NCBI GenBank assembly: GCA_964623835.1
Contig: CAZUVN010000001.1
Location: 1 to 50,033 of the forward strand
DNA length: 50,033 bases
Source: an uncultured Candidatus Peribacteria bacterium
GTDB taxonomy: Bacteria; Patescibacteriota; Gracilibacteria; Peribacterales; Peribacteraceae
Direction: 5' to 3'
Shown: positions 2,652-24,838 of the stretch, piece by piece
How positions within the stretch are numbered: position 1 is the first letter of the stretch
Layout: every line of letters starts with the position of its first letter
Notes under the pieces: model-generated
Database searches by the model: none
What the model saw: only the letters and a program-made list of their open reading frames with translations
Told to the model about the DNA's origin: nothing
Program-made: the position numbers and the translations under genes

Positions 2652-2748
2652 GTGGGGGGTCGGGAAAATGTCTTTGTAAGACTAAAGCGGAATCGTCAAA
2701 CAGTAAAGGAATGTCGTAATACTATTTTGGAGGCTCCGTAGCTCTTTA

Positions 2749-3149
2749 CCCTTTCTTGTCTCCCATACAAGAAAGGGTGGAAAGAAAATCACCGTGCGCC
2801 AAAGCTCCTCCACCCGGCTCTGTATCTCCTCATCGATTCCTCCAAGGCTTCGGAATCGATTCGTCGATAGACGATCAGAGCCTTCCTCAACACCCCCATG
2901 GCGCACGGAAGCCGCCAGGTACGCATCTTATCGAAATCACCTTATTTCCAAGAAGTACTGAGAGATATAGATGACAAGCAGCTTTGAATGATTCAGTGCT
3001 TGAAGCGGTGATTTCCGTCGTTCGTCAGGAGGGTTGAGGGGTTGTTAGGGGGTGAAGGGAACCCCTAAAGGGACTGCGCATCTAGCCTCTCACTACGTTC
3101 GAGAGCTAGCTGCTGGGAGCCGGACAAGGTTCCCTAGCCCCCTGACAAA
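2749..3149 (-). ncRNA. unclassified structured RNA-like repeat, copy A (paralog of 23241-23587)
   Basis: The reverse complement aligns with 23241-23587 and the 119-nt core 2790-2908 is about 95% identical. Nested complementary segments, and a terminal hairpin 2749-2777 whose sequence differs from copy B but still pairs. The repeat itself is certain. The RNA-gene interpretation is inference. Confidence 0.45.
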
Positions 3150-5207
3150 TCAAATCACCACCTTCGCATCAGCAACCATCACGCCGTCATTGCGGACGAG
3201 GACCGGGTTTAAGTCGAGTTCGGTAATAGATGGATTTTCCAGCATCATCCGCGAGACGTTCACGATCACCTGTGCCAGCGCGTCGATGTCAGCCTGCGGT
3301 TTACCGCGCATGCCGAGGAGGAGTTTCCACGATTCCAATTCACTGAGCATCGCGTATGCATCTGCACTGTTTACCGGAGCAATCCGGAAAGCAGAATCTT
3401 TGAAAAGTTCGGTGTAGATACCGCCGAGTCCGGCCATAATCAGCGGACCGAAGGACGGATCGCGTACAGCTCCGACAATAAATTCATTGCCGACGGGCAA
3501 AAATTGCTGAATCAGCACACCCTTCACATGTGATGAATGCGCGTGGCCGTTTTTCAGAATGTCATTGAACGCCGTAATAACATCGGCTGCACTCTGTAGA
3601 TTTGCCCGTACGCCACCGACATCTGTTTTATGAAGAATGTCCGGCGAGCTGATTTTCGCAATCACCGGATACCCGATCTGCTCCGCAATGTGCACTGCTT
3701 CTTCGGCGGTTGTTGCAAGATCTTGCTTGGGGAGAGGGAGGTTGTAGGCGTTGAAGAGTTGTGTGGTTGTTGATTCATCGAGGAGGCCGGATTTGTCGTT
3801 GAGAATGGAGATGGTGTCATGGTGAGCCCGACGAACCATGACATTTGTCGCATGTCGCCCTTCGTCGAGCTCAGGGTGACATGCTAGTGCCTTCATCGCC
3901 CGCACCGCCCTCTCCGGCGTTGCGAATGTGGGAATAGTCGCCACGCGCAGAATCTTTTTTGCTTCACGTACGCTGTCACCACCCATGAATGCTGTGACGA
4001 TGGGCATGAGAGGGGACTCTTTCTTTTTGCGAACGATCAACTCTGCAATCTCATTCACCGGTGTCATCACCTGTGGCGTCAGAATAATCACAAGGCCATC
4101 GATATTCGGATCGTTCTGGCATGCGTCTATTGCCGCTTCATAACGGTCTGCACCTGCATCGCCGATTACATCGATGGGGTTTTGGGTTGATGCGGCTGCA
4201 GGAAGTTTTGGTTTGAGCGTCTCTGTAATAGCGTCAGACAGCGATGGCAAATCAAGCTTTGCCGATTCGGCCGCATCTGTTGCAAGAATGCCTGGCCCAC
4301 CAGCATTGGTGATGATGCCGATTCGATTACTGAGCAGCGGCGGTTCCATGCTCAGCACGCTCAGGAGATCCAAAAATTCTTCGGTTGAACGTGCACGGTG
4401 AATACCAGTCTGCGCGCACAATGCATCAATAGCGGCATCACTTCCTGCAAGGGCACCGGTATGCGATGACGCGGCTTTGCGACCGTGTTCGGAGACGCCT
4501 GCTTTCAGGAGAACAATCGGCTTCTTCGATGCACGTGCAATCTCCATGAATCGGCGTCCGTCTTTGATGCTTTCCAGATAGAAGCCGATCACATGCGTGT
4601 GTGCATCATGCATAAGTAGTTCCAGTGCGTTCGATTCATCGAATGCTGCTTTGTTTCCAATAGAGAGAAATGCGGATAGTCCGAGTCCGAATGATGCAGC
4701 GCCATCCATCAGCGCCACACCAACGGCGCCCGATTGGCTCACGAAGGCGATGTTTCCTGCAGGCGGAAGCTCTTTGGCGAACGATGCGTTCATCTTCGCA
4801 TGTGGTCGAACGACGCCGAGGCAGTTGGGACCGAGGAGGTTGATGGAGTGTTTCTTCGTGATTGCGACTAACTCTTCCTCGAGTTTCTTTCCTTCGTCGG
4901 TATGCACTTCACCGAAACCGGCGCTGATGACCACCACATTCTTGATGTCTTTCTCGCCACACTCGGTTAGTGCCTGGGGAACGGCAGTTGCGGGAATGAC
5001 AATCACCGCGAGTTCGGGAATTTCGGGAATGTCTGCGATCGACGTGTAGACCGTTGCACCCAGAATGTCCCCACCTTTCGGATTCACCGGAAAGATCTTT
5101 CCCGTGTAACCTTGGGTCAGCAGGTTTTTCAGGATGTCATGACCGACCTTTCCCGGGGTTGCCGAGGCGCCTATCACCGCGATGCTCTGGGGGTCCAGAA
5201 TTGCCAT
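3150..5207 (-). CDS. acetate--CoA ligase (ADP-forming), fused alpha/beta (NDP-forming acyl-CoA synthetase)
   Basis: 685-aa ORF. N-terminal CoA-binding/succinyl-CoA-synthetase-like part (IAVIGAS..GKVGH, VSQSGA, SSHTGALAG) is fused to a C-terminal ATP-grasp part. Confidence 0.9.
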   Translation of the reverse strand: MAILDPQSIAVIGASATPGKVGHDILKNLLTQGYTGKIFPVNPKGGDILGATVYTSIADIPEIPELAVIVIPATAVPQALTECGEKDIKNVVVISAGFGEVHTDEGKKLEEELVAITKKHSINLLGPNCLGVVRPHAKMNASFAKELPPAGNIAFVSQSGAVGVALMDGAASFGLGLSAFLSIGNKAAFDESNALELLMHDAHTHVIGFYLESIKDGRRFMEIARASKKPIVLLKAGVSEHGRKAASSHTGALAGSDAAIDALCAQTGIHRARSTEEFLDLLSVLSMEPPLLSNRIGIITNAGGPGILATDAAESAKLDLPSLSDAITETLKPKLPAAASTQNPIDVIGDAGADRYEAAIDACQNDPNIDGLVIILTPQVMTPVNEIAELIVRKKKESPLMPIVTAFMGGDSVREAKKILRVATIPTFATPERAVRAMKALACHPELDEGRHATNVMVRRAHHDTISILNDKSGLLDESTTTQLFNAYNLPLPKQDLATTAEEAVHIAEQIGYPVIAKISSPDILHKTDVGGVRANLQSAADVITAFNDILKNGHAHSSHVKGVLIQQFLPVGNEFIVGAVRDPSFGPLIMAGLGGIYTELFKDSAFRIAPVNSADAYAMLSELESWKLLLGMRGKPQADIDALAQVIVNVSRMMLENPSITELDLNPVLVRNDGVMVADAKVVI

Positions 5208-22679: not shown

Positions 22680-23240
22680 ATGTACGAAATTACCGAACTG
22701 AAACCCGGCCGCGCAATTCAGCTTGATGGCGAGCCATACGTCGTTGTTGCATCTGTGTTCGGACGCAAAAGCATGGCCAAGGCCAACATGCAGTGCAAGT
22801 TAAAGAACCTCATTACAGGGGCTATTGTTGCGCGTAACTTCCAGGGAAGTGAGAAGATTGAACCGGCAGATGTCGGTTACAAGAAAGTGCAGTTTCTCTA
22901 CGGCGATGGCGAGCGTTTCACATTCATGGATCTGCAGAGCTACGATCAGTTTGAGCTGAGCGCCGATGTGATTGGCGATGCTGCGGGGTACCTTCTCGAA
23001 GGTTCGGAAATTGATGCATTGATGTTTCAGGACAAGCCGATTGGCATTCAGGTGAAGGCAACGGTCGATTTGAAAGTTGTCGAAACGATTCCCGGCGTGA
23101 AGGGCGATACGGCAACCGGCGGTAACAAGCCTGCAAAGCTCGAAACCGGTATTACGGTGAACGTGCCGCTTTTCATTAATGAAGGCGACAAGGTGAAGGT
23201 GAATACGGAGACGGGCCTCTATATGGCTAGAGCAAACTAA
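22680..23240 (+). CDS. efp: translation elongation factor P
   Basis: 186-aa ORF. LKPGRAIQLDGEPYVV and later VPLFINEGDKVKVNTETGLY are EF-P signatures. Confidence 0.95.
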   Translation: MYEITELKPGRAIQLDGEPYVVVASVFGRKSMAKANMQCKLKNLITGAIVARNFQGSEKIEPADVGYKKVQFLYGDGERFTFMDLQSYDQFELSADVIGDAAGYLLEGSEIDALMFQDKPIGIQVKATVDLKVVETIPGVKGDTATGGNKPAKLETGITVNVPLFINEGDKVKVNTETGLYMARAN

Positions 23241-23587
23241 TTTGTCAGGGGACTAGGGAACCTTGTCCGGTTCCCTCCGTCCCCCGACACCCCCGTTACC
23301 CTCCTGACTGACGACGGAAATCACCACTTCAAGCACTGAGTCATTCAAAGCTGCTTAGCAGTATTTACTCATAGTTCTTCTTGAACATATGGTGATTTCG
23401 ATAAGTGAAAATACTGAAGGAATCCCGTGCGCCATGGGGGTGAAGGGGAAGGCTCTGATCGTTTATTGACGAGTCGATTCCGAAGCCTTGGAGGAATCGA
23501 TGAGGAGATACAGAGCCGGGTGGAGGAGCTTTGGCGCACGGTGCACTTTTCTTTCGACTATTTCTTTTGGGCAAGCAAAAGAAATAG
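23241..23587 (+). ncRNA. unclassified structured RNA-like repeat, copy B (paralog of 2749-3149)
   Basis: Starts at the first base after the efp TAA. Outer stem ccgtgcgcca(23425-23434)/tggcgcacgg(23532-23541), nested ggctctg/cagagcc and tcgattcc/ggaatcga, terminal hairpin 23558-23587. Differences from copy A keep pairing as G-U only in this orientation. Confidence 0.45.
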
Positions 23588-23613
23588 TCCCTGTGGAGAA
23601 ATCTTCTCTTAAC

Positions 23614-23636
23614 AAAAAAGACACCTTTCGGTGCCC
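23614..23636 (-). terminator. short intrinsic terminator-like hairpin (minus-strand reading ggcacc-gaaa-ggtgtc + T6)
   Basis: Read directly. Also followed by T-rich sequence on the plus strand, so possibly bidirectional. Confidence 0.4.
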
Positions 23637-24217
23637 TTTGTGTGTTTGTCTTCCTCCGACAGTTATCGACGACTCTTTTGGTCGTTGAGCTGGATTGAAG
23701 GGTGACGGAGACGAGAAGTCTCAACTTTCTGCCGTGCTCTGGTCTCTTGTTTAACCTCGGGACCGTGCCGAGTTCTCCGTGACGGTTCGACGCAGAGTCT
23801 TGCGACTAAGGCGAACACTGGAGAGAAGGGGGTGTGTACGAAGGAGTCTCAGGCCCGTCGTACGGATCTTTGCAGAGCAGAGAGGAGAGTGGCCACTTCT
23901 TAAGTGGTGAAAACCATGATCACGTGCCTATACCCAGAAGTGTGCAAAGTGGTTGCAAAGGTTGGCCGGGAGGAACGCGCGCGATTCTCAACTAATGACC
24001 ACTCCTCTCTCTGTATGTTGTCGGTGATGTGAAGGAAGCGTGTGTGTCTTGGTTGGTGTGTTTCCCTGCGCGTCAGGTTTCATATCATCGTACTCAGCAG
24101 TGTCCGCATCCGCAACTTTCTGCGGTGGAGAGTTATCCACAGTGGTGATATGAATATATTTTGTATACAGGTTTAGTCGTTGCTTTTTGGTCCTAAAAAA
24201 GGGATCCTGCAGCCAAT

Positions 24218-24838
24218 ATGTCGCTTTCGGAACTGTCGGCACAGTATGCTACTGGCAAAACGAAAAGATTGTTCGATTTGTACGAAGAAGTACTGGGAGA
24301 CAGACGAACGGAGCCTGTAACAGTGCTTGAGCTGGGCATCGAAAAAGGTGGATCACTCCAGCTCTGGCGGGATTATTTCCCATCAGGAACCATCATCGGG
24401 CTCGATAGCGCACACGTTGCGATTGACGATCATTCGGGAAGAATTCATCAATACACAGGTCCACAGCAGGATACCACTCTTTTAGATCAAATCATCCGCG
24501 AACGTGCGCCGGATGGATTCGATATCATCATCGATGACTGTTCACATATTGCGGCGGATGCGCGAGTAAGTTTCTGGCATCTTTTTCCCATGTACGTTCG
24601 TAGCGGTGGTTTGTATATGATCGAGGATTGGGCGACAGGGTATTGGGATACGTGGCCGGATGGCAAAAAATATGACGGATCGAATCATCAAGCGGGGATG
24701 GTTGGATTTATTAAGGAATTGGTTGATGAATGCGAGGCATGGACGATCACGCATGAGACACACGGCATTCCGCCGCATCGTGCGACACACATTCAATCCC
24801 TGCGGATTTTCCCCGGTTTAGTTGTGGTACAGCGCTAA
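24218..24838 (+). CDS. class I SAM-dependent methyltransferase
   Basis: 206-aa ORF. VLELGIEKGGS (motif I-like), IIGLD and IIIDDCSH...GGLYMIEDW are typical of the Rossmann-fold methyltransferase layout. Substrate unknown. Confidence 0.65.
   Translation: MSLSELSAQYATGKTKRLFDLYEEVLGDRRTEPVTVLELGIEKGGSLQLWRDYFPSGTIIGLDSAHVAIDDHSGRIHQYTGPQQDTTLLDQIIRERAPDGFDIIIDDCSHIAADARVSFWHLFPMYVRSGGLYMIEDWATGYWDTWPDGKKYDGSNHQAGMVGFIKELVDECEAWTITHETHGIPPHRATHIQSLRIFPGLVVVQR

What the first reader, a model, noticed from the sequence alone, without database searches (positions are those of the whole stretch)
23241..23587. Copy B: differences from copy A preserve base pairing and indicate the transcribed strand
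- **Nested pairing.** ccgtgcgcca/tggcgcacgg encloses ggctctg/cagagcc, which encloses tcgattcc/ggaatcga. A distal stem gaaatcacc/ggtgatttc is present in both copies.
- **Compensated hairpin.** The 3' hairpin is ctatttcttttg/caaaagaaatag here but ccctttcttgt/acaagaaaggg in copy A. The sequence differs while the helix is kept.
- **Strand-specific substitutions.** Three core substitutions (cgtC to cgtT pairing with gacg, and Atcga to Gtcga pairing with tcgaT) convert Watson-Crick pairs to G-U. This holds only if copy B is read on the plus strand, co-directional with efp.
- **Caveat.** An antisense ORF shares 41 aa between the copies, and 3 of the 6 core differences are synonymous in it. However, indels of 1 nt on one side of the core and 2 nt on the other break that frame while nucleotide similarity continues.
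Basis: seen in the sequence. Interest (0 to 1): 0.65.

Follow-up and report, generated by a model that had tools for sequence, protein, structure and literature searches.

The report
Structured insertion repeat behind efp
Copy B is a 369-base non-coding insertion between the efp stop codon and its terminator in an uncultured Peribacteria bacterium; it belongs to an undescribed multi-copy family whose multi-helix fold is kept by compensatory mutations, so it behaves as a small mobile structured repeat and not as a two-copy RNA gene.

Summary
The nested helices, the compensated 3' hairpin and the G-U-making substitutions are all at the stated coordinates.

- **Fold.** Twelve copies from six Peribacteria genomes give strong covariation: 97.7% of cells are paired, against 26-44% when partners are slid. 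Fifteen of 31 pairs change on both sides.
- **Not coding.** One-base indels between lineages rule out the antisense 41-aa frame.
- **Folded strand.** G·T outnumbers A·C by 10 cells to 1, so the folded strand is the efp-sense strand.
- **Not a two-copy RNA gene.**
  - Relatives have an empty site: 372 nt are missing, with TAA on both sides.
  - The same subtype sits at other loci in other genomes.
  - The efp-to-terminator gap is an insertion hot spot.
  - One diverged copy lies in frame inside a Wzy-type membrane-protein gene.
  - Assemblies fragment at the element, and summed depth rises 7-15 fold.

The conserved unit is about 165 nt: a three-helix rod with a G-rich bubble, a U-rich tract and a pyrimidine/purine hairpin. 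Here a 177-nt 5' module is attached to it.

There is no Rfam match, no promoter or terminator hit, and no transposase in the window. No RNA-seq run could be listed.

Best reading: an undescribed non-autonomous, RPE/ERIC/REP-like structured repeat, co-transcribed with efp. How it moves, and whether RNA or single-stranded DNA is what matters, remain open.

The parts
23238..23240 (+). TAA stop codon of efp; left copy of the 3-nt direct repeat that flanks the insertion
   Evidence: sequence; contigs of relatives join 23237 to 23610, with 3 letters that fit either side.
23241..23609 (+). Whole inserted segment of copy B, 369 nt. It is absent from the same site in relatives.
   Evidence: X4 record 9 (4959 nt) and X5 record 15 skip 372 nt (TA..CT). 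Their flanks are 84-94% identical to the window.
23241..23417 (+). 5' module. It contains the conserved end tttgtcagggga, hairpin gggaacc/ggttccc (23256-23262 / 23269-23275), a C-rich tract (23273-23306) and a long hairpin closed by gaaatcacc/ggtgatttc (23317-23325 / 23391-23399).
   Evidence: It occurs only attached to the core (copy A, copy B, L003, L006). It is absent from the core-only copies L005, L008, L013 and L010.
23425..23541 (+). Core rod. P1 23425-23434/23532-23541; G-rich 5' bubble 23435-23450; P2 23451-23457/23511-23517; small hairpin P2a 23459-23463/23468-23472; P3 23473-23481/23493-23501 with apical loop GAAGCCUUGGA 23482-23492; 3' bubble GGGUGGAGGAGCUU 23518-23531.
   Evidence: 97.7% of cells are paired; 5, 4 and 5 pairs in P1, P2 and P3 change on both sides; 0 of 500 shuffles reach the observed score.
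23547..23554 (+). U/C tract UUUUCUUU (Y1). It mirrors the 5' arm of the following hairpin and runs parallel to its purine arm AAAAGAAA.
   Evidence: parallel T·A/C·G run of 8, shuffle p = 0.004. Present on the element-sense side only.
23556..23589 (+). P4: perfect 14-bp hairpin with a pyrimidine 5' arm and a purine 3' arm, loop ggcaag
   Evidence: ten different stem sequences across the family, all perfectly paired.
23590..23609 (+). 20-nt tail of the insertion (cctgtggagaaatcttctct). It is loosely similar to the tails of some other copies.
   Evidence: inside the skipped segment. (tails tcctcgaagcgaa in L008 and cctctgcgaagcaaa in X1).
23610..23612 (+). Right copy of the TAA direct repeat
23614..23648 (.). 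Conserved terminator-like hairpin (aaaaaagacacc tttc ggtgcc ctttgtgtgtttg) that follows efp directly in genomes without the insertion
   Evidence: the same hairpin is in L015 (perfect stem) and L013; the simple scan did not score it as a terminator, probably because of the stem mismatch.
2743..3149 (-). Copy A: core plus P4 at 2743-2915, 5' module at 2916-3149. The module carries a nested 58-nt insert at 3062-3119. Copy A starts right after the TGA of an ADP-forming acetyl-CoA-synthetase-like gene.
   Evidence: relatives have 65 unrelated letters in place of 2666-3152, and other copies lack 3062-3119.

Best explanation
Copy B is one copy of a Peribacteria-specific, non-autonomous, insertion-type structured repeat.

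**Shown**
- A 369-nt segment sits between the efp stop codon and the conserved efp terminator hairpin. It is flanked by TAA on both sides and is missing from that site in related genomes.
- The family-wide unit is about 165 nt: a 10-bp GC-rich stem P1 that encloses a purine-rich bubble and, in full copies, helices P2, P2a and P3; then a U/C tract; then a perfect pyrimidine/purine hairpin P4.
- The fold is preserved through compensatory changes between subfamilies.
- The unit occurs with or without a 177-nt 5' module. It also occurs as 'mini' versions, as head-to-head pairs, and once in frame inside a gene.

**Inferred**
- The element spreads by insertion. The enzyme is unknown and is not encoded in this window.
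- The fold forms on the element-sense strand.
- Copies A and B each lie directly behind a stop codon and are co-oriented with the upstream gene. Copy B also lies upstream of that gene's terminator. They are therefore carried into the 3' end of the upstream mRNA.
- I lean about 60:40 to the RNA form over single-stranded DNA as the form the fold is selected in. P4 would then act as a 3' barrier or processing structure, as in ERIC or Correia-type elements.
For: **Insertion and mobility**
- Empty site with a TAA/TAA repeat at efp, and the same element at another locus in the same metagenomes.
- The copy A locus is also unoccupied in relatives.
- The copy-B subtype lies between dnaA and thrS in JBGAVO (L003). 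The copy-A subtype, with the 58-nt insert, lies behind valS in CAYXNG (L006).
- The gap between efp and its terminator holds different inserts in L015 (250 nt), L017 (about 895 nt) and L013 (its own diverged copy).
- L010:3378-3562 matches the model (40 bits with R1, 60 with R2). It is translated in frame as an insertion of about 60 aa in a Wzy_C gene, relative to five orthologues.
- In the runs that hold this genome, summed depth over the core is 7-15 times that of the flanks. Several other left flanks join the same 5' end TTT(G/C)GTCAGG.

**Fold**
-, as summarised above.
- Ten distinct, perfectly paired P4 stems.

**Strand**
- G·T 10 cells against A·C 1.
- The G-rich bubbles and the U/C tract lie on one strand only.

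**Orientation**
- GC skew is positive across the whole window. Copies A and B point opposite ways, and each follows its upstream gene.
- Among single copies, 8 of 10 are co-oriented with the upstream gene or tRNA.

**Non-coding and unclassified**
- Indels.
- No Rfam family.
Against: - No transposase, integrase or HUH gene is in the 50-kb window. Clear terminal inverted repeats could not be defined.
- The TAA repeat rests on a single filled/empty pair and could be microhomology.
- Compensatory change over the entire 165 nt is more than a DDE-type MITE would need. It fits a functional RNA, or a single-strand recognition structure, as well as it fits selfish DNA.
- Two single copies (L008, and the weak hit in L020) and the paired CAYSPY copies are antisense to their neighbours.
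- No RNA-seq was available.
- No promoter or terminator signal lies in the element.
Copy number and genome-wide orientation statistics are therefore missing.
Confidence: 0.5

Rival explanations
1. A true multi-copy small RNA gene family. An RNA of about 165-175 nt is transcribed from its own promoter, an A/T-rich box 8-14 nt upstream of P1. It is stabilised by the P4 hairpin and acts in trans or binds a protein through its GGA/GGAGG-rich bubble and loop. Copies relocate by recombination, not by transposition.
For: - Covariation runs through the whole unit.
- The purine-rich single-stranded segments, with GGAGGAG, are invariant in the 9 close copies and in L013.
- A -10-like box recurs upstream of P1 in otherwise unrelated contexts: TATAAA in L008, TTATAT in L005 and L013, TAATAT in X6 and X8.
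- L008 lies antisense between dnaA and thrS, so it would need its own promoter.
Against: - The sigma-70 scan finds no promoter in either window copy. The box is degenerate in copies A and B.
- P4 has no U-tail, although this lineage uses canonical terminators (L010 tRNA terminator).
- One member is translated inside a gene.
- Mini and alternative-insert versions lack P2 and P3.
- GGAGGAG is lost in L010a.
- No RNA run holds the sequence.
Confidence: 0.22
2. A REP/REPIN- or IS200/IS605-type repeat. The fold matters only as single-stranded DNA, recognised by an HUH (RAYT/TnpA-like) or other structure-specific enzyme during replication. Any transcription is incidental.
For: - The structure is selected between subfamilies, as expected if it is needed for propagation.
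- G·T is tolerated and A·C is not; this holds for ssDNA as well as for RNA.
- Head-to-head inverted pairs in CAYSPY resemble REP doublets.
- There is no convincing TIR or long target duplication.
- Earlier unverified notes of this scan describe replication-oriented repeats of about 170-185 nt in other Peribacteria.
Against: - Copies A and B lie on one replichore by GC skew yet point opposite ways.
- The unit is far larger and more elaborate than the 20-40-nt hairpins that RAYT or TnpA enzymes recognise.
- No HUH gene was seen in the window.
- Insertion is flanked by a TAA repeat, whereas IS200/IS605 leave no duplication.
Confidence: 0.15
3. A small protein gene: either the antisense frame sharing 41 aa between the copies, or the 61-codon sense ORF at 23427-23612.
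For: - Open frames exist on both strands in both window copies.
- In the antisense frame, 4 of the 6 core differences between the copies are silent.
Against: - One-base insertions and deletions at five sites separate the lineages, while nucleotide similarity and base pairing continue.
- Substitutions follow helices, not codons.
- The G-rich sequence is poor in stop codons by composition alone.
Confidence: 0.03
4. A cis-regulatory leader or riboswitch for the downstream gene.
For: It is a structured, conserved non-coding element that lies upstream of a co-oriented gene in both window copies.
Against: - Downstream neighbours are unrelated: an unknown 320-aa protein, a conserved non-coding region, thrS, a sigma factor, a dinB-like gene on the other strand.
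- Relatives keep the same genes without the element.
Confidence: 0.03

Closest known systems
Rickettsia palindromic elements (RPE)
   Same: Both are non-coding, hairpin-forming repeats of about 100-150 nt with no associated transposase. Both are scattered between genes, and both are tolerated in frame inside protein genes (review PMC10969869). Here the in-frame case is L010:3378-3562 inside a Wzy_C gene.
   Different: - Different phylum and no sequence similarity.
- Here the multi-helix fold is kept by many compensatory changes, and the unit is modular: core, optional 5' module, mini forms.
- Only one intragenic case was seen among 17 model matches.
ERIC/IRU and Neisseria Correia elements (bacterial MITEs that act on mRNA)
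   Same: - Small non-autonomous insertions, often at the 3' ends of genes and co-transcribed.
- Their RNA hairpins alter mRNA processing or stability. ERIC at the 3' ends of Yersinia genes and RNase III cleavage of Correia are described in PMC10969869.
- Correia can invert in place, which recalls L003 and L008 at the same dnaA-thrS spacer in opposite orientation.
   Different: - Correia and ERIC are defined by clear terminal inverted repeats (Correia also has a TA duplication). Here TIRs are not convincing and the single observed repeat is TAA.
- The conserved part is an internal three-helix rod plus a Y/R hairpin, not the termini.
REP / BIME / REPIN elements mobilised by RAYT
   Same: Both are extragenic palindromic repeats whose hairpin is kept by compensatory change. 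Both occur singly and as inverted doublets, and both show presence/absence differences between strains.
   Different: - REPs are 20-40 nt with a GTAG/CGTC tag. This unit is about 165 nt with asymmetric, one-strand G-rich bubbles.
- No RAYT was found (only the window could be checked).
- The two window copies do not share an orientation relative to replication.
Class IV (pyrimidine-motif) intrastrand triplex motifs, PIT/TMECO type (Holder et al. 2015, PMC4666352)
   Same: The 3' module has the class IV order: Hoogsteen pyrimidine tract, then pyrimidine arm, then purine arm (definition). The parallel T·A/C·G runs are 6-8 long in 14 of 17 copies.
   Different: - TMECO is a G/C-rich purine-motif DNA element of Proteobacteria.
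- Here the motif is A/U-rich, it is only the tail of a larger element, and it is missing in L013 and L010a.
- It conflicts sterically with the full-length hairpin, whose basal pairs covary.

Membership tests
Any Rfam RNA family | Covariance-model match at or near the family's gathering score | tested here: not met
   Only a tRNA is found elsewhere in the window. In 23100-24300 the best hits are below 20 bits against cut-offs of 40-100.
MITE (DDE-transposase-derived) | Terminal inverted repeats | tested here: inconclusive
   The 5' end TTTGTCAGGGGA resembles the reverse complement of an internal part of the tail (TTTCTCCACAGGGA). That stretch lies 8 nt inside the right boundary, and the tails of other copies differ.
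MITE (DDE-transposase-derived) | Target-site duplication at filled versus empty sites | tested here: inconclusive
   One filled/empty pair shows TAA...TAA. The copy A locus is replaced by 65 unrelated letters in relatives, so no second pair could be read.
MITE / IS derivative | A related autonomous element or transposase in the genome | not testable with these tools
The window's genes are housekeeping, with no transposase.
REP/REPIN-RAYT | Short (20-40 nt) palindrome with a conserved GTAG/CGTC-type tag, and a RAYT gene flanked by REPs | tested here: not met
   The unit is about 165 nt with no such tag. There is no HUH gene in the window. The whole genome was not searchable.
REP-like ssDNA repeats oriented with replication (earlier notes of this scan) | Uniform orientation relative to the replication direction | tested here: not met
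   GC skew is positive across all 50 kb, while copy A is on the - strand and copy B on the + strand. Only two copies could be tested.
RPE-type selfish repeats | Copies inserted in frame in protein-coding genes as well as between genes | tested here: met
   L010:3378-3562 is read through in frame as an insertion of about 60 aa in a Wzy_C protein. The insertion is absent from five orthologues.
Class IV intrastrand triplex motif (Holder 2015) | Hoogsteen pyrimidine tract parallel to the purine arm of a following hairpin: stems 6-15 nt, loops 1-6 nt | tested here: inconclusive
   - Runs of 6-8 in 14 of 17 copies, per-copy shuffle p from 0.04 down to 0 of 5000 shuffles.
- Only 3 in L013 and L010a, and 5 in L010b.
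- The reversed control scores nearly as well.
- There are 0-1 nt (3 in two mini copies) between the tract and a stem that continues 2-5 bp below the last triple.
Intrinsic terminator | GC-rich hairpin followed by a U-run | tested here: not met
   P4 is A/U-rich and is followed by tccctg. The scans find none in either copy.
Small protein gene | Reading frame conserved across homologues | tested here: not met
   Core lengths are 117, 118, 121, 123 and 125 nt, with 1-nt indels at several sites.

The most novel reading that the evidence does not exclude
The sense-strand transcript would be the functional product: a Peribacteria-specific RNA module that spreads by insertion behind genes. Two features would be new.
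Earlier unverified notes of this scan say these leaders replace Shine-Dalgarno sequences in this genome.
- Its 3' end (U/C tract plus Y/R hairpin) would fold as a U·A-U/C+·G-C triple helix that protects the RNA, a MALAT1-like arrangement not established in bacteria.
Probability: 0.08. Interest if true: 0.85.

Novelty: new variant of a known kind. Interest (0 to 1): 0.5.

Why it matters
- **Biology.** CPR bacteria such as Peribacteria have genomes of about 1.2 Mb, and mobile elements are not what one would expect to find in them. A multi-copy, insertion-polymorphic element with a strongly covarying 165-nt fold and no visible transposase shows that structured repeats do spread in these genomes. 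It also poses a concrete question: which enzyme or RNA pathway moves it?
- **Annotation.** Spurious ORFs are called across the element (for example 23365..23724 on the - strand), assemblies break at it, and it can sit inside real genes.
- **If the RNA has a function.** A role in 3'-end protection, or in interplay with the unusual C-rich translation leaders, would make it a new regulatory RNA class in an uncultured phylum.

Tried and rejected
- **Rfam.** Searched at gathering and at E <= 10. Nothing relevant.
- **RNA-seq.** No RNA run could be listed for the core, so transcription could not be tested.
- **Genome tools.** There is therefore no genome-wide census, no orientation statistics and no search for a mobilising gene.
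- **Collection scans.**
  - The first metagenome contigs pattern found nothing.
  - The second gave only L009, a chance match inside a high-GC coding region.
  - Viral contigs gave nothing.
  - L007 (Bdellovibrionales) is a 23-nt chance match inside a gene.
- **Broader model.** R2 found no further copies in 273 kb of Peribacteria loci. The family, as modelled, is confined to a subset of lineages.
- **Coding hypotheses.** Rejected on the indels.
- **Riboswitch or leader.** Rejected on the variable neighbours.
- **Replication-oriented repeat.** Not met for the two window copies.
- **Triple helix at the 3' end.** Attractive, with mirror tracts in most copies and a matching T-to-C / A-to-G change in the CAYSPY mini copies. 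Downgraded because it is absent in L013 and L010a, the reversed control scores almost as well, and the tract abuts a stem whose basal pairs covary.
- **Terminal inverted repeats and a general target duplication.** Could not be established.
- **tmRNA.** ARAGORN found none in the adjacent 560-nt conserved spacer.

Full report
**What is at the coordinates**

The efp ORF ends with TAA at 23238-23240. From 23241 the sequence aligns with the reverse complement of about 2743-3149 (copy A). The 119-nt core is 95% identical and the upstream 137 nt are 80% identical.

- P1: 23425-23434 / 23532-23541.
- P2: 23451-23457 / 23511-23517.
- P3: 23473-23481 / 23493-23501.
- Distal stem: 23317-23325 / 23391-23399.
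- 3' hairpin: 14 bp at 23556-23589, replaced in copy A by a different, equally perfect 12-bp stem.

Both copies start at the first base after a stop codon: TAA of efp, and TGA of an ADP-forming acetyl-CoA-synthetase-like gene.

Of the six core differences between the copies, three lie in an unpaired bubble and one in a hairpin loop. Two (23463 and 23473) turn Watson-Crick pairs into G-U on the + strand. The count is therefore two, not three.

**Relatives and the fold**

A scan of one genome per species returned seven further copies in three Peribacteria MAGs (CAYSPY, JBGAVO, CAYXNG) and one chance match.

I built a covariance model from the nine copies. I ran it over about 320 kb of Peribacteria loci, fetched around efp homologues. 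This added several matches:
- three diverged full-length copies: L013:10646-10818, L010:7225-7399 and L010:3378-3562;
- four 'mini' copies that keep only P1, the U/C tract and the terminal hairpin;
- one partial 3' fragment cut off by the start of a locus (L001:1-93).

On the 12 full-length sequences, the four helices P1, P2, P2a and P3 (31 pairs) gave these counts:
- 97.7% of cells form standard pairs, against 26-44% when the 3' partners are slid by 1-3 columns;
- 15 pairs change on both sides;
- 0 of 500 shuffles reach the observed covariation score.

The alignment was fitted to the model, which favours the structure. However, the nine close copies align by sequence alone and already show 12 compensated pairs.

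The terminal hairpin occurs in ten different sequence versions. All are perfectly paired, and all have the pyrimidine arm 5' and the purine arm 3'.

**Coding or not**

The core is 117 nt in both window copies, 118 in L001, L005 and L008, and 121-125 in the diverged copies. One-base insertions or deletions occur at five alignment positions. No frame on either strand survives, while pairing does. The antisense 41-aa frame and the 61-codon sense ORF are by-products of a G-rich, stop-poor sequence.

**Which strand folds**

- In the four helices there are 10 G·T cells (about five independent events) and one A·C cell.
- The two large internal loops are both purine-rich on the same strand (UGGGGGUGAAGGGGAA and GGGUGGAGGAGCUU).
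- The U/C tract before the last hairpin exists only on that side.

Free energy does not discriminate between the strands. G·T tolerance applies to single-stranded DNA as well as to RNA.

**It is an insertion**

- **Empty site at efp.** In two metagenomes, contigs of a related organism run from efp (84% identical) straight into the downstream sequence (94% identical). They skip 23238-23609, and three letters (TAA) fit either side. The same runs hold the element at another locus.
- **Copy A.** Its locus is likewise unoccupied in relatives.
- **Same subtypes at other loci.** The copy-B subtype lies between dnaA and thrS in JBGAVO (L003). In CAYXNG (L008) a near-identical core lies in the same spacer in the opposite orientation and without the 5' module. 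The copy-A subtype, including its nested 58-nt insert, lies behind valS in CAYXNG (L006).
- **Hot spot.** The short gap between the efp stop codon and a conserved terminator hairpin holds 0, 250, about 895 or 369 nt in different genomes. In L013 it holds that genome's own diverged copy.
- **In-frame copy.** L010:3378-3562 is translated in frame as an insertion of about 60 residues in a Wzy_C-type membrane protein. The insertion is absent from five orthologues.
- **Copy number.** In the two runs that hold this genome, contigs break at the element. Summed depth over the core is 7-15 times that of the flanks. At least three other left flanks join the same 5' end TTT(G/C)GTCAGG. The depth sum includes other organisms, so it is only a rough sign of multiple copies.

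**Architecture**

The family-wide unit is P1 plus bubble, the U/C tract and the Y/R hairpin.
- What P1 encloses varies: P2-P2a-P3 in full copies, a different 75 nt in L010b, and much less in the mini copies, whose interior is shorter and differs.
- The 177-nt 5' module of the window copies occurs only attached to the core, and only in four copies.
- In CAYSPY, each full copy is paired head-to-head with a mini copy.

**Orientation**

GC skew is positive across the whole window. Copies A (-) and B (+) therefore lie on one replichore in opposite orientation. Each follows its upstream gene.

Among unpaired copies, 8 of 10 are co-oriented with the upstream gene or tRNA. The exceptions are L008 and a weak hit in L020. 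This is suggestive (one-sided p of about 0.05), not decisive.

**Signals and partners**

- Simple scans find no sigma-70 promoter or intrinsic terminator in either copy.
- An A/T-rich, -10-like box recurs 8-14 nt upstream of P1 in core-only copies. This keeps an own-promoter model alive.
- The window encodes only housekeeping genes.
- No RNA run could be listed.

**The 3' module**

The order is pyrimidine tract, pyrimidine arm, purine arm. This is the class IV intrastrand triplex arrangement defined by Holder et al. 2015 (PMC4666352).
- *For:* parallel T·A/C·G runs of 6-8 occur in 14 of 17 copies. In the CAYSPY mini copies, an A-to-G change in the purine arm is matched by T-to-C in both pyrimidine segments.
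- *Against:* the motif is absent from L013 and L010a. The reversed control scores almost as well, because TTTCTTT is nearly mirror-symmetric. The tract abuts a stem that continues 2-5 bp below the last possible triple, and those basal pairs covary.

I keep the triplex as a minority reading.

**Interpretation**

The best-supported reading is an undescribed, non-autonomous, insertion-type structured repeat of Peribacteria.
- *How it behaves.* It resembles RPE, ERIC/Correia and REP elements (PMC10969869): small, multi-copy, insertion-polymorphic, tolerated in frame, and placed at gene 3' ends where it is co-transcribed.
- *Membership.* It meets none of those families' defining sequence features.
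- *What stands out.* The extent of compensatory evolution across a 165-nt multi-helix fold, with one-strand G-rich bubbles, is unusual. It argues that a single-stranded form is needed for propagation or for function. That form would be RNA on balance of the orientation evidence, though ssDNA is not excluded.

I found no paper describing such repeats in Peribacteria. The class's genome paper mentions only one direct repeat and origin-proximal short repeats.

Noticed in passing
window 23610-24170: A non-coding stretch of about 560 nt directly after the insertion is conserved (69-82% identity) downstream of efp in at least nine other Peribacteria loci. It begins with a terminator-like hairpin. 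It has no Rfam match and no tmRNA call. It may be an unclassified large RNA gene, possibly on the - strand.
   Followed up: partly
window 3062-3119 (copy A, - strand): A 58-nt nested insert, itself a hairpin, sits in the loop of the first hairpin of the 5' module. 50 of its 58 nt are identical in L006 (7477-7526). It is absent from copy B, from L003 and from copies in runs X3 and X7 (joint 3061 to 3120).
   Followed up: partly
L010:3378-3562 (inside the gene at 2707-4320): A diverged family member is read through in frame inside a Wzy_C / O-antigen-ligase-like gene, adding about 60 residues in a variable loop.
   Followed up: yes
L001:7446-7752, L002:4821-5132, L004:1155-1461: In the CAYSPY MAG every full copy is paired head-to-head with an inverted 'mini' copy of about 105 nt. 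The composite is bracketed by two perfect Y/R hairpins. The composite's orientation relative to neighbouring genes differs between loci.
   Followed up: partly
L003:3426-3777 and L008:7708-7884: The same dnaA-thrS spacer holds near-identical cores in opposite orientation in two genomes. This spacer may contain or adjoin the replication origin. L003 also has a GAATT-type heptamer run next to the element.
   Followed up: no
L015:1090-1339 and L017:4968-5861: The gap between efp and its terminator holds other inserts in other genomes. In L015 these are tandem AGCTTCTT repeats plus a small - strand ORF. L017 has about 895 nt of unknown content.
   Followed up: no
8-14 nt upstream of P1 in L008, L005, L013 and in contigs of runs X6 and X8: A recurrent A/T-rich box (TATAAA, TTATAT, TAATAT) precedes the core in otherwise unrelated contexts. 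It could be an element-borne -10 region. It is degenerate in the window copies (AATACT, GTACCT).
   Followed up: partly
L013:10712-10728: In this diverged copy the otherwise invariant apical loop GAAGCCUUGGA is replaced by GUCUACAUCCUCC. This carries CCUCC, the complement of the GGAGG in the element's own 3' bubble.
   Followed up: no
window 23365..23724 (-) and 23427..23612 (+): ORFs of 119 and 61 codons run across the element. They are artefacts of its stop-poor composition, and gene callers are likely to annotate them. In the fetched loci, gene callers placed short ORFs with no Pfam hit in the non-coding spacer downstream of efp.
   Followed up: yes
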